Origin: Eledone cirrhosa
Taxonomy: Eukaryota
Length of the DNA: 64,000 nt
Direction: 5' to 3'
Assembly: GCA_964016885.1 (NCBI GenBank)
Contig: OZ024743.1
Span: 107,570,001-107,634,000 of the forward strand
Part shown: piece after piece, positions 26,126-62,647 of the stretch
Layout: the number at the start of each line of letters is the position of its first letter
Position numbering within the stretch: the first letter of the stretch is position 1
The notes under the pieces: generated by a model
The model's database searches: none
Told to the model about the DNA's origin: nothing
Seen by the model: the letters and a program-made list of their open reading frames with translations, nothing else
Translations under genes and position numbers: made by a program

Positions 26126-26354
26126 TTGTTATACTTTGGGAGGGTCATGTTGCCAATAAGAAACACACGCACCAGCTGCTTTCACTTCAATTTATTATAT
26201 ATTTATAAATTTATAAATTTAAAAATTTCTGGTTCGTTGGTTGGTTCCACAACCAGATAGTTGTTTATATATAGTCATTGTTCTTTCGTCACACACTCTG
26301 TGACCTCTTCAGTGACTGGGGATTCCTTTCTTTGTTTCCGTGCCTCTCCTTTGT
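26126..26354 (-). mobile_element. PLE 3' terminal segment (pLTR with HHR), near identical to 33001-33234
   Basis: Sequence identity to the PLE end; abuts (TA)n; HHR motif at 26273-26317. Confidence 0.9.
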
Positions 26355-27417
26355 ATTTTAGTATGTTAATTTTTTTGTTTGTTCTTTTTATTTTTCTGTT
26401 TTGGGGGATACTGCACTTGGTTTTGTTCACAGGTTTTGGTGGGGTGTGTTTTCTACATATATTTGTGACAGTGTCTACAAAGATCTGCCAAGATGTTTTG
26501 ATGTTGGTCGAAGTGTGTGCGTGTGTAAAAGACCAGTCGATATGCGATAGTTCGTTCATAATTGCATCCCAGTTTGCATTGTGGAGATCCATGTTATCAA
26601 ATGGGTGGGCTTGATGGAGGACCCTGGGATTAGCTTTCGGCTGGTGGAATCTCAGGTTACAAAGAACCATGTCATGGTCTGAGAGAAGGGTTTTTTCCAC
26701 TCTAATATTATGTATAGTGTTAGTGTAGTTACTAAACACTAGATCCAGAATGTTCTTCTGATGCCTCGTTGGAGCAAGGACAAGTTGGGACAGGAAAAAC
26801 TCATTCATGAAGTCAAGAAGTGACTCGACAGCCTCTTTGTCAGTGGTTGAGGCTGTGGAGCCTGGTTTCAAACTACATGTAGACCAATCGACACAGGGTA
26901 GATTAAAGTCTCCTATCAAAAGTATGTTGCTAGAATGGCACTGTTTAATAAAGCATTTAAAACTGTTCAGGCATTCTTTGAAACAGAATATGGGTGTTTG
27001 TGGCGACCTATAGAGCCCAACTAATGTCAGGTCATTGGCTTTATTGTGCACAGTGACTGATTCACAGTATCCATTATAGAATGTTGTGTTGCCATCTGCC
27101 GTAAAGGAATCATGCAGGAAAATGGCAGTTCCACCCCTCCTTCTGCCAATACGATCCGCACGGATGGTTGTAAAATTTCTCACTCTTACTTCGGCCTCCA
27201 AGTGGGAGTTGTCAAGGTGGGTCTCAGTAAGAATGAAGAAGGGGATGTGAAATGGATAGTTACCAACCCAATCCTCAATGAATTGAATCTTCCATTTCTG
27301 TGCATTGATGGATGGGCTGATACCTTGTGTATTGAGTAAGAATGTGGAGGCTAGTGTGGTGGCTGGTTTTGACTGTTGCAGAGGGCTTGTTTTGTGATTG
27401 TGTGTTAGTGACAGCAA
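26275..27417 (-). CDS. LINE ORF2 N-terminus: apurinic/apyrimidinic-type (EEP) endonuclease, truncated before RT and reading into the PLE pLTR
   Basis: Motifs LLNTQGI, LTETHL, RADR..RRRGGTAIF, GLYRSP, IGDFNLP, PTR..NILDLVFSN, SDHDMV. Confidence 0.9.
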   Translation of the reverse strand: MLSLTHNHKTSPLQQSKPATTLASTFLLNTQGISPSINAQKWKIQFIEDWVGNYPFHIPFFILTETHLDNSHLEAEVRVRNFTTIRADRIGRRRGGTAIFLHDSFTADGNTTFYNGYCESVTVHNKANDLTLVGLYRSPQTPIFCFKECLNSFKCFIKQCHSSNILLIGDFNLPCVDWSTCSLKPGSTASTTDKEAVESLLDFMNEFFLSQLVLAPTRHQKNILDLVFSNYTNTIHNIRVEKTLLSDHDMVLCNLRFHQPKANPRVLHQAHPFDNMDLHNANWDAIMNELSHIDWSFTHAHTSTNIKTSWQIFVDTVTNICRKHTPPKPVNKTKCSIPQNRKIKRTNKKINILKYKGEARKQRKESPVTEEVTECVTKEQ

Positions 27418-28614
27418 GGTTGGTGTTGGGTGATGGCTAAGATGTTTTTCTCTATCTCTTTTGCCAGGTTCATGTCTAAAAAAGAAAGAATTTTTTTTTG
27501 TTCAGGGAGCAGTTTTTGATTGGATTTGTAGTTACAACATTGGATAGAGTTGCAGTTCCCTCTTTTCTTGTTGTTGTTGTATTTGTTGTAATTGTGTCTT
27601 TGTGAACAGACTGGAGCAGCGTTATTTTTGTTGTATTCGTTGTTGTTGTGATCGTGTCTTTGTGACAAGACTGGAGCAGCATTACTTTTGTTGTTTTTGT
27701 TGTTGTAATCATGTCTTTGTGAGGAGACTGGAGCAGCATTACCGCAGCAGGGGGTGGTTTTATTTGGCATGAAGCCCCTTTTCTATTCGTGCGTTGTGTC
27801 CCAGGAAGATGAGTGAAAGGACAGTCAGGCAGCAGACATAGCCTCTCACGTTGGGAAAGTTGGAAGATTTTGGGACTGCGACCTATACGTGCAGGCAGCG
27901 TGCTTTGGTGATGGCTGGCAGTGTTAGTGCGCCTAGTACCCGGTAAATGGGTAAATATACAGTCGCTACGTGTGCATAGCCTCTGACGTAGTGAGTAGCG
28001 GCATATTTGGGGGTTTCTAGTATGTGTAGTGGGGGTGCATACAGCACCATAGAACTTTTTTTTTAATAGTTTTTTGACTATGGCATGGTTGTGGTGGTGA
28101 TGTGGGGGAAGAAAGCATTGGTGGTGATGATGATGATAACTGTGGTGGGAGAGAGAGCAGTGGTCCATTACTAGCAGTTGGTGTGGCAGGAGATGGTGAC
28201 GGTGCTGATGGCGATAATGATGGCCGAGTGAGTGGCTGAGTGATACTGTCATTTAGAAGTTCAGCGATTGTGCTTGAATTCAGTAGTGGTCGGTCCTGGC
28301 TTTCTGACTGTTATTGTTGTTGTGGCTGTTGTTGTTGTTGTTGTTGTTGTTGTTGTCCATTAGCGTAAATATGTCGAAGTTTTTTCAAAATGGTTTTGAA
28401 ATAATTTGAAAGAGACTTCGACGTGTTTTAGTTTGTTGTGTATCCGCTTAGCAGATCTCGTCGTAAATGTTTGGGCTGTTTTTTCAGCAATTTCATTCAG
28501 AAATGACGCGTTAATGTTTGATGTTTGTGACAGAGAAAACCATGTGTTTATTAAGAGGTCAATTTCATTTTCAGACCAAGTTCGTCCGTTGTGGGCTTGC
28601 TGGTCAGTAGTCAT
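27405..28614 (-). pseudogene. LINE ORF1, frameshifted: N-terminal Myb/SANT-like (trihelix) domain, Pro/Thr-rich linker, tandem CCCH zinc fingers, 3x 60-bp repeat
   Basis: RTWSENEIDLLINTW...EIAEK...RSAKRIHNKLKHV (28360-28614); CRYSLRQRLCTRSDCIFTH and a degenerate second copy LCLLPDCPFTH; lies directly upstream of the APE. Confidence 0.65.
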
Positions 28615-29175
28615 ATAGTTTTTTTTTTATTATTATCCTTGTGTGCGTTTTAAGATATTTGTTATTTGATACGTGAGTAAGACTTTGGTTATTTGAAGAA
28701 ATTAAAGAATCGCGTATATATATATATTTTTTCTCTCTTATGGATGTGAATTTGGTTGTTTGAGGATGTTAATAGTTTTTGGTTATTTCGTTGTTTGAAG
28801 ATATCCAAGGAAAAACGAGTGTATATAATAGCTTGTAGTTAAGACGACATACTTGCAAGTTTGTAGGGAAAGCACGTGTATTTGTATATAGTTTCCTTAT
28901 GTGAGTGAGGCTTTGGTTATTTGGTTGTTTGAAGATATTAAGAGAAAAACGAGTGTATATAATAATCTGTAGTTTAGAAAACGTACTTACTCACGAGTTA
29001 GTAGGAAAAGCACGTGGTTACAAGTATATATATACAAATATATGTTCGGTCAAATAGGCTTAAAAGCTGGGTACCTGGCAACTGACTTGGTAGAGAGTAA
29101 TATAAACACGTCTATTCACCTCAACAGTCAATATATATATATATAAATATATATATATAAATATATATATATATA

Positions 29176-29471
29176 GATTACAATAATCAAAGTTCAGTTT
29201 AAATCATTTATTTGCTTACAATTGTTTCCTCCAAACCTCGGTTTGGAGGAAACAATTGTAAGCAAATAAATGATTTAAACTGAACTTTGATTATTGTAAT
29301 CCCTATATAACTGCTCTGTAAAACAACCGATGTTATTACATTGAGCTATTTATCTTACTGTTAATAAGATAGTAATGAATGACTATCTTTCACTATTTGG
29401 GGTTTGTATACAAAATATATAACCATAAAAGGTTTTATTATATACATAACCATAAATAGTATCCTTAATAC
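29176..29471. mobile_element. (TA)n-flanked foldback element (62-bp perfect arms, 2-nt loop) plus a 170-bp tail
   Basis: Arms 29176-29237 and 29240-29301; right arm carries GAAA-CAATTG-TA. Confidence 0.85.
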
Positions 29472-61188: not shown

Positions 61189-61380
61189 ATAATTGTTTCT
61201 ACTTTTGGCACAAGGCCACCAATTATCCCAGTGTATTACTGGTACGTTATTTTATCGACCCCGTAAGGATGAAAGGCAAAGTTAACCTCGGCGGGATTCG
61301 AACTCAGATCATAAAGGGCCGTAACTCTTTGCTGCAAAGCATGGCGTCCGACCCTCTACTGAAACTGCCAATTCACCGCC
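61189..61380 (-). mobile_element. Full-length Nin/Deu-core SINE
   Basis: Minus strand starts GGCGGTGAATTGGCAG; B box GAGTTCGAATCCC. Confidence 0.9.
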
Positions 61381-62188
61381 TTGCACGTCCTAAATAATGA
61401 AAGCTATTAACAACAGCAAGACGGACTCCATCAACAAAAAATATTTGAATCTTGATATGCATTGCCAGTTTGTCGAGTAATTCTAACTTGTGACATTTTC
61501 AAGCTAAATTTTAAATTACGTTACTCAAGTTACCTTAGAATCTGTCACTATCCTCGATGTGGAGGAGATCACGAGCGATCGATACAAAATATCTACTCTT
61601 GACAGAAAAATGGTGCAAATTACATAGCTTTCCTGCAGTCCTATACATCAGGCATGTCAAACTGAGGGTCCGCCGAGGGTCTAATAGGTCACATATGTGT
61701 TGTGTGAGGGCCACACCCGGCACTAATTGCGCACATTACAACAAATATTTTAAATTTTATATTACGAAGATAAAACATGCACAGAACCCACACTAAGACC
61801 AGCTTATTACATAACTGACAAGATTCTCAGTAAATAACGAATATCACTGAATAGATCATAAATATATTTCATGTATTTACATTTGTACAGTGAGACCATA
61901 ATTGCATCTTTCTAATCCAGTGACACTGGGTACCATTTCAAATCGAATCAAATATGTCATATAGCAGCTGCTTCCGTATATATATATATATATATATGTA
62001 CACGTATACATACACATATACCTACATACATAACCACAAACACACACACACACACACACACACGCACAGACACACACACACACATATATATATATATAAT
62101 AGAAAAAAACGAGGAAGTTTCGTTTACATTGTGTATCGACCCGTTAAGCGCGCTTCACCGAGAATTAGCACATGACATATCTTTTGTC

Positions 62189-62292
62189 GTATCACGAGTC
62201 TGAGGAGCAGATCGATACTGGAGTTGGGTTCATAACTCCTATGGGCGACATTGAGCCAATCCTCTGCGAAATGCGCGTACCATGTCGATACA
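62189..62292 (+). ncRNA. Hammerhead-like motif with an expanded stem II
   Basis: CTGAGGA (62200)-GCAGA-[51 nt incl. GGAGTT/AACTCC hairpin]-TCTGC-GAAA-TGCGCG-TA; stem I degenerate. Confidence 0.55.
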
Positions 62293-62405
62293 CAATAAAT
62301 ATTTGTTCATATTATATACACTCTGCTTGTGCACAGCGTGCTTGATTGGTACTAACACCAGTACTTCCCTGTACTACCTACTATATATATATATATATAT
62401 ATATA

Positions 62406-62647
62406 TTGTTATACTTTGGGAGGGTCATGTTGCCAATAAGAAACACACGCACCAGATGCTTTCACTTCAATTTATTATAATAAATTTATAAATTTAGGAA
62501 TTTATAAATTTATTATAATAAATTGAAGTGAAAGCAACTGGTGCGTGTGTTTCTTATTGGCAACATGACCCTCCCAAAGTATAACACTATCCGTTTCAAC
62601 GCACGTTTTCAGATAAAGAATCTTGCTAAATAAATTCTGAAACGAAA
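62406..62647. mobile_element. Minimal foldback derivative of the 33001 PLE: two inverted caps plus a 60-bp tail
   Basis: Same left end and same right tail (TTTCAGATAAAGAATCTTGCTAAA...GAAACGAA) as 33001 and 38612-38670. Confidence 0.9.

What the first reader, a model, noticed from the sequence alone, without database searches (positions are those of the whole stretch)
26126..62647. One TA-abutting PLE terminal cap attached to several unrelated cargos
Seen: (TA)n-TTGTTATACTTTGGGAGGGTCATGTTGCCAATA... starts at exactly the same nucleotide at 26126, 30332, 33001, 55036, 60111 and 62406. It is followed respectively by a LINE 5' half, a 535-bp direct-repeat unit, its own PLE, a different PLE clade's pLTR and GIY-YIG, a short spacer plus a SINE 3' end (cap only ~27 bp), and an inverted copy of itself. 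Inference: a fixed priming site plus promiscuous template jumping makes this cap a portable (TA)n-targeting module for retroposing other RNAs.
Basis: partly seen in the sequence, partly recalled or inferred. Interest (0 to 1): 0.78.

Follow-up and report, generated by a model that had tools for sequence, protein, structure and literature searches.

The report
Penelope-like retrotransposon with two paired ends
The repeated 'cap' is one of two fixed ends of a very common Penelope-like retrotransposon that sits in TA repeats, and its apparent 'cargos' are likely neighbouring TA-loving elements fused to it by deletions, not RNAs it carried.

Summary
The six TA-abutting starts are real, but the cap is not a portable module. 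It is the ORF start (MTLPKYN) of a Neptune/Nematis-like Penelope element (family A; 22,834 exact 33-mers). It is one of two fixed ends: 45% of hits follow TATATA, and 44% follow a 57-60 bp tail that itself abuts TA. This matches the two internal RT start sites shown in vitro for anole Poseidon. Of the first 100 TA-caps on contig C1, 73 close with an inverted tail arm, 1 with a cap arm, 10 truncate at a microsatellite and 14 join foreign DNA. None of the 14 is closed by an A tail arm, 7 keep an inversion stub, and identified partners lie in both polarities. The partners are mostly other TA-abutting repeats. The window's LINE targets TA itself and loses its 3' end to other families too. Site 60111 is a sister family with a SINE inserted later (17-bp duplication). 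Best reading: neighbours fused by deletion. By-product worth keeping: two-armed insertions almost always pair one proximal with one distal end (73/74; 11/11 and 11/11 in two other families), and both arms share alleles. This suggests coupled twin priming.

The parts
26126..26352 (-). Family A cap arm, 227 bp of pLTR including a minimal hammerhead-like motif near 26270-26315; TA tract 25854-26125 on its left
26353..29130 (-). 5' 2.8 kb of a TA-targeting APE LINE ('LINE-X'), complete to its 5' end at the TA tract at 29131; about 2 kb of 3' part missing; 2-nt (GT) microhomology to the A arm
30332..30435 (-). Family A cap arm, about 100 bp, then about 10 bp of filler
30446..31104 (+). Family B: 535-bp tandem-unit element with PLE-like architecture, ending at its own fixed TA-abutting end (unit position 126)
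33001..37511 (-). Family A cap arm: pLTR plus 5'-truncated, frameshifted ORF (RT, CX4CxxC linker, GIY-YIG; stop at 33398); the cap holds the ATG (33021-33023) of the next unit's ORF
37503..38671 (+). Inverted second arm of the same insertion, ending in the tail (38612-38671) at a TA tract
55036..55145 (-). Family A cap arm, about 110 bp; TTG microhomology to family C
55146..56195 (.). Family C PLE two-armed insertion: left arm (GIY-YIG-type end of ORF, 55302-55886, minus) lacks about 190 bp of its outer end; right arm ends at its own TA-abutting end
60111..60394 (-). Truncated copy of sister family A', interrupted by a SINE
60166..60338 (-). tRNA-like SINE inserted into A', with a 17-bp target duplication (60149-60165, 60339-60355)
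62406..62647 (.). Short hairpin insertion of family A: cap arm on the left, tail arm on the right, TA on both sides

Best explanation
The cap is the proximal of two fixed ends of a (TA)n-inserted Penelope-like element and encodes the first codons of its ORF; it likely marks an internal reverse-transcription start site, and the 'cargos' are likely older or neighbouring TA-targeting elements fused to a truncated arm by deletion. Inferred cycle: the GIY-YIG nuclease nicks both strands of a TA tract. One DNA end primes at the cap site and the other at the tail site 57 nt further on; the RNA reads UAUC after both sites, allowing about 3 nt of pairing with a ...TATA primer. The two cDNAs join head to head into an inverted insertion. 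TA tracts are shared landing pads, so elements pile up. When the far arm, the intervening TA and some flank are lost, either during 5'-end joining or later at the unstable palindrome and TA tract, the cap arm ends up joined to its neighbour.
For: Shown: two ends in near-equal numbers. The cap translates as the ORF start in a tandem copy. First 100 TA-caps: 73 tail-closed, 1 cap-closed, 10 truncated, 14 foreign, 1 tandem, 1 N gap (after hand correction of 8 rows). 0 of 14 foreign joins are closed by an A tail arm; 7 of 14 keep an inversion stub; polarity is 3 same and 4 opposite. 36 of 69 intact insertions already have another recurrent TA-abutting end as neighbour. LINE-X is TA-flanked on its own (5' junction within 20 bp of TA in 15 of 20). 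Of 20 copies with a complete 5' end, 13 reach the 3' end and none has an A cap in place of it; L320 and L259 carry other families' ends in the same position. Partners C, F and B keep their own fixed far ends.
Against: No empty allele was seen; the local empty-site test was uninformative. The window LINE reaches its true 5' end, as only about 1 in 10 candidates do (134 vs 1,438 first-look candidates). It lies in the same polarity as A, as does the LINE in L106, which is what an RNA switch would give. Fusion at 26126 needs a deletion of about 2 kb or more. Seven of the 14 partners could not be oriented. For three of the 14 only 1.3-2.3 kb downstream was visible. The 100 caps come from the first 50 Mb of one contig.
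Confidence: 0.7

Rival explanations
1. The A reverse transcriptase really switches from its own RNA to other RNAs in trans, so that some joins (26126, 55036, L106) are single retroposition events; in the strong form the cap is a portable module that retroposes arbitrary RNAs.
For: Same-polarity partners exist (26126, 55036, L095, L098, L106). The junctions have 2-3 nt microhomology. Complex self-jumps are common inside A insertions. pLTR-bounded capture of host DNA is described in rotifers (PMC3846280).
Against: No sandwich in 100 caps; fillers of 30 bp or more inside closed insertions are A-derived or TA. Opposite-polarity partners are as common. Identified partners are TA-associated repeats, not abundant cellular RNAs (Rfam: 0 hits in 24 loci). 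The one host exon seen (CAMSAP-like, L101) lies 630 bp away in opposite polarity. No amplified chimeric family was found.
Confidence: 0.2
2. Two different retroelement particles prime the two ends of one break in a TA tract, giving mixed two-armed insertions (A arm on one side, the partner's own 3' end on the other).
For: Several joins end at another family's fixed TA-abutting end facing outwards (window 30332, L116, L125, L210). L329 is a full LINE-X joined to an inverted A end.
Against: In ordinary two-armed A insertions both arms share alleles (15 of 461 diagnostic sites differ, against 42% for arms of different insertions), so even two different A RNAs rarely share a break. A pre-existing neighbour gives the same picture.
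Confidence: 0.07
3. The joins are assembly errors across long TA tracts and palindromes.
For: TA tracts and palindromes are hard to assemble (own knowledge); no raw reads were laid.
Against: The joins lie in complex sequence away from the TA tracts, with microhomology or filler. The structures recur with the same rules in three families.
Confidence: 0.03

Closest known systems
Neptune/Nematis clades of EN+ Penelope-like elements (Craig et al. 2021, PMC8557442)
   Same: [quoted passage not shown] (TA)n targeting is reported there for Naiad and Hydra, and linked to the linker motif.
   Different: Tail is 57-60 bp rather than 30-40 bp; ORF is long (about 1,200 aa by joining frames, with an N-rich N-terminal part). 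The clade was not placed on a tree here.
Poseidon from Anolis carolinensis, PAc (Frangieh et al. 2024, PMC11167929)
   Same: Two adjacent internal RT start sites inside the 5' coding region, with the tail between them; hammerhead upstream in the pLTR; AT-rich target; both strands cut and extended in vitro; dimer predicted.
   Different: PAc lacks the cysteine linker, and its start sites are described as not homologous to the cut DNA. Here both sites are followed by UAUC, which can pair with a TA primer, and the two sites are used as a strict pair in two-armed insertions.
Adineta vaga Penelope families that capture host DNA (Arkhipova et al. 2013, PMC3846280)
   Same: Foreign sequence next to pLTRs; microhomology joins; insertion into another retrotransposon.
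   Different: There the cargo lies between pLTRs with a target duplication and an empty allele. Here no foreign DNA was found between two A arms.
Non-LTR retrozymes and non-autonomous PLE derivatives (bioRxiv 10.64898/2026.07.22.740005)
   Same: Family B is a tandem non-coding unit with PLE-like direct and inverted arms.
   Different: No hammerhead was found in family B by a simple motif search, and no ORF partner was identified.

Membership tests
EN+ Penelope-like element | Single ORF with PLE-type RT and C-terminal GIY-YIG | tested here: met
   863-aa frame with DKSG, YVDD and VVY...YIGET; RVT_1 E=1e-3 and GIY-YIG E=4e-3, both below Pfam cut-offs; Atlas neighbours at 0.96-0.98, several carrying HTH_animal, GIY-YIG or RVT_1
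EN+ Penelope-like element | pLTR from partial tandem; inverted 5'-truncated copy | tested here: met
   Tandem in L237; inverted arm in 74 of 100 caps
EN+ Penelope-like element | Optional tail between two fixed ends | tested here: met
EN+ Penelope-like element | Minimal type I hammerhead motif in the pLTR | tested here: met
   CUGAAGA...GAAA with long stem II, compensated between A and A'; no Rfam hit at the gathering score; cleavage not tested
Neptune/Nematis | CX2-5CxxC linker between RT and EN, and CCHH in EN | tested here: met
   CIDKKCITC and IRC...QC...H...H; definition from PMC8557442 passages
Neptune/Nematis | RT phylogeny grouping with Neptune or Nematis | not tested
   no reference sequences were held
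PLE-mediated trans-mobilisation (Adineta type) | Foreign DNA enclosed by the element's terminal repeats | tested here: not met
   0 of 14 foreign joins closed by an A tail arm; no foreign filler of 30 bp or more between arms
PLE-mediated trans-mobilisation (Adineta type) | Empty allele lacking the whole composite | tested here: inconclusive
   local repeat-based test uninformative; no second genome or reads

The most novel reading that the evidence does not exclude
PLE inverted repeats arise by coupled twin priming: one dimeric particle holds one RNA (or one tandem transcript), cuts both strands of (TA)n and primes one DNA end at the distal start site and the other at the proximal one, so the same RNA region is copied twice. 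The rule holds in three families here (73/74, 11/11, 11/11), the arms share alleles, and either arm may be longer, which a simple fold-back cannot give. Occasional switches onto other TA-element RNAs may ride on this.
Probability: 0.5. Interest if true: 0.55.

Novelty: new member of a known kind. Interest (0 to 1): 0.3.

Why it matters
The cargo idea mostly falls, but the family is a clean, very large natural data set for the unresolved PLE insertion mechanism. The near-absolute pairing of one proximal and one distal start site per insertion gives a sharp prediction that the existing PAc in vitro system could test. It also shows that (TA)n tracts act as shared landing pads where PLEs and LINEs pile up and fuse, which confuses repeat annotation.

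Tried and rejected
Invariant single end: rejected. SINE as cargo at 60111: rejected. Amplified cap-LINE, cap-B or cap-C families: no second copy among the 39 other scored candidates of each search (only the best 40 candidates are scored). Fold-back copying of the first cDNA as the source of the second arm: disfavoured, since the cap arm reaches further in 36 and the tail arm in 27 of 68 mapped pairs. Two unrelated A RNAs per insertion: disfavoured (a few pairs such as L139 and L023/L024 do differ). De novo synthesis of the TA tract and empty-site reconstruction from nested repeats: uninformative, 5 of 82 insertions gave any paired flank hit and none was a clean empty site. Target duplications: one clear case (27 bp, L139) among 69. 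Rfam on the window and 24 loci: nothing. Earlier scan findings: none. No reads or second individual were examined, so polymorphism and expression remain open.
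Full report
Observation. The sequence TTGTTATACTTTGGGAGG starts at 26126, 30332, 33001, 55036 and 62406, and with one mismatch at 60111, each after a TA-rich tract. It also occurs on the minus strand at 38611 and 62587, where a 57-60 bp extension lies between it and the TA. The window is G000:C4:107,570,001-107,634,000 in a 3.0-Gb genome; the organism was not identified. The 33-mer has 22,834 exact hits and the reversed control none. 10,291 hits follow TATATA and 9,996 follow CGATA, the end of the extension. 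In the first 100 hits, 54 carried the tail, 41 abutted TA and 5 were degenerate.

What the cap is. Window 33001-38671 is a two-armed Penelope-like element (family A): a long arm with the ORF on the minus strand and an inverted arm ending in the tail. [quoted passage not shown] Pfam scores are weak; Atlas neighbours are of PLE type. In the tandem copy L237 the cap and tail are internal to the unit and translate as the ORF start, [16 protein letters not shown].... This explains why sister family A' shares the first 27 bp. In RNA sense both ends are followed by UAUC, which could pair with a TA primer (inference). A minimal hammerhead-like motif lies in the pLTR, with stem II compensated between A and A'. 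This anatomy matches anole Poseidon, where two adjacent RT start sites inside the 5' ORF bound the tail and both strands are cut and extended (PMC11167929; parts 1-2 of 4 read). It also matches the general PLE description with a tail often at one end only (PMC8557442; passages). Minimal hammerheads in pLTRs are described in PMC4209133 (passages).

I fetched the first 100 TATATA-caps of C1 and traced each. The script gave 68 tail-closed, 1 cap-closed, 14 truncated and 17 foreign. I reassigned 8 rows by eye: five had short or missed tail arms, one truncated row was foreign, one was a full tandem and one ran into an N gap. That leaves 73 tail-closed, 1 cap-closed, 10 truncated at TA or CA repeats, 14 foreign, 1 tandem and 1 gap. 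If the RT jumped from the cap to a foreign RNA and the second end were made as usual, most of the 14 should end in an A tail arm. None does within the 1.3-6 kb visible (about 1e-12 under independence); L210 ends in an A' cap instead. Seven of the 14 keep the beginning of A's own inverted arm before the foreign DNA (L003, L093, L099, L190, L210, L213, L223; two of these stubs are only 13-15 bp and judged by eye), which points to loss of the outer part of the second arm. Polarity, from ORFs or termini, was the same as A in L095, L098 and L106 and opposite in L003, L116, L190 and L210; seven were unassigned. Fillers inside closed insertions were A-derived or TA. Rfam found nothing in 24 loci with foreign joins. 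An extra 29 loci from other contigs showed the same classes.

The window's cargos. 26126: 227 bp of pLTR joins LINE-X at 26353 through GT. All 39 other scored matches begin at or near the junction, and the 29 fetched continue as LINE. LINE-X lands in TA by itself: 15 of 20 5' junctions lie within 20 bp of TA, and intact 3' ends abut TA. The window copy is complete to the LINE's 5' end and lacks about 2 kb of 3' part. Among 20 copies with a complete 5' end, 13 reach the 3' end, 7 do not, and none has an A cap there; L320 and L259 have other families' ends in that position. 30332: family B has its own two fixed ends and the window copy stops at one of them, facing outwards. 55036: family C keeps its own far arm and end; only about 190 bp of the near arm is replaced, and the junction is unique among 40 scored candidates. 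60111: family A' with a later SINE and a 17-bp duplication. 33001 and 62406 are ordinary self insertions. Half of intact insertions (36 of 69) already have another recurrent TA-abutting end across the TA tract, which is the expected precursor of such fusions. That long TA repeats and palindromes break and delete is known (PMC11797062, PMC12972899, PMC7999016; only search listings and abstract starts seen).

Against this reading. The window LINE and the LINE in L106 are in A's polarity and the former runs to its true 5' end. A 2-kb deletion is needed at 26126. No empty allele could be examined (one search was uninformative). True capture between pLTRs, with an empty allele, exists in rotifers (PMC3846280; parts 2-3 of 5 read). 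A minority of real switches is therefore possible.

By-product. In two-armed insertions one end is the cap and the other the tail: 73 of 74 from the cap side. From the tail side, 31 of 54 hits closed with a cap arm and one insertion was tail-tail by script, with one more tail-tail pair seen. A' gave 11 tail-closed and no cap-closed among 26 loci. In family B, 11 of 29 loci had both outer ends at fixed sites, and all 11 had one of each. The arms share subfamily alleles: 15 of 461 diagnostic sites differ, against 42% in control pairs, in 31 of 68 mapped pairs with enough overlap. Gene conversion between arms could contribute. Either arm may be longer (36 vs 27), so simple fold-back is unlikely. 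The simplest model is one dimeric particle priming both DNA ends from the two start sites of one RNA. This is inference. Searches returned no paper whose listing or read passages quantify this pairing; closed-access papers and supplements were not seen. An octopus repeat annotation (PMC13282606; passages) lists Penelope families without such detail, and the retrozyme preprint was read in part 1 of 5. Family labels A, A', B-F and LINE-X are mine.

Verdict. A real, abundant new family of a known kind. The portable-cap interpretation is largely not supported; the paired use of two start sites is a modest, testable addition. Interest 0.3.

Noticed in passing
window 30446-31104; L062-L090: Family B, a non-coding 535-bp tandem unit with two fixed TA-abutting ends 133 bp apart, used one each in two-armed insertions; probably a non-autonomous PLE derivative, no hammerhead found.
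   Followed up: partly
window 26353-29130; L145-L150, L240-L259, L310-L329: LINE-X, an APE LINE of about 4.9 kb with TA tracts at both ends, so apparently a (TA)n-targeting LINE; its 5' region holds tandem monomers.
   Followed up: partly
L329: Full-length LINE-X whose 5' end joins an inverted A cap-plus-tail piece with no TA between them.
   Followed up: partly
L210: Two-armed insertion whose second arm starts as A' and continues as A near the ORF stop codon.
   Followed up: partly
window 29176-29300, 31950-33000, 59550-59762: Other TA-flanked hairpin or inverted-repeat elements, likely short two-armed insertions of further families; several ends recur in other loci.
   Followed up: no
window 17118-24836: 36-bp minisatellite array of about 200 copies.
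   Followed up: no
window 35187-36549: Tandem duplication of about 680 bp inside the A ORF, absent from other copies.
   Followed up: no
L013, L014, L113: A arms with many T-to-C changes on one strand, resembling A-to-I editing of the RNA template or poor base calls.
   Followed up: no
L139: 27-bp direct repeat on both sides of an A insertion, the only clear target-duplication-like case among 69.
   Followed up: partly
L101:3231-5099: Long host exon with a CAMSAP_CC1 match, 630 bp from a truncated A arm.
   Followed up: partly
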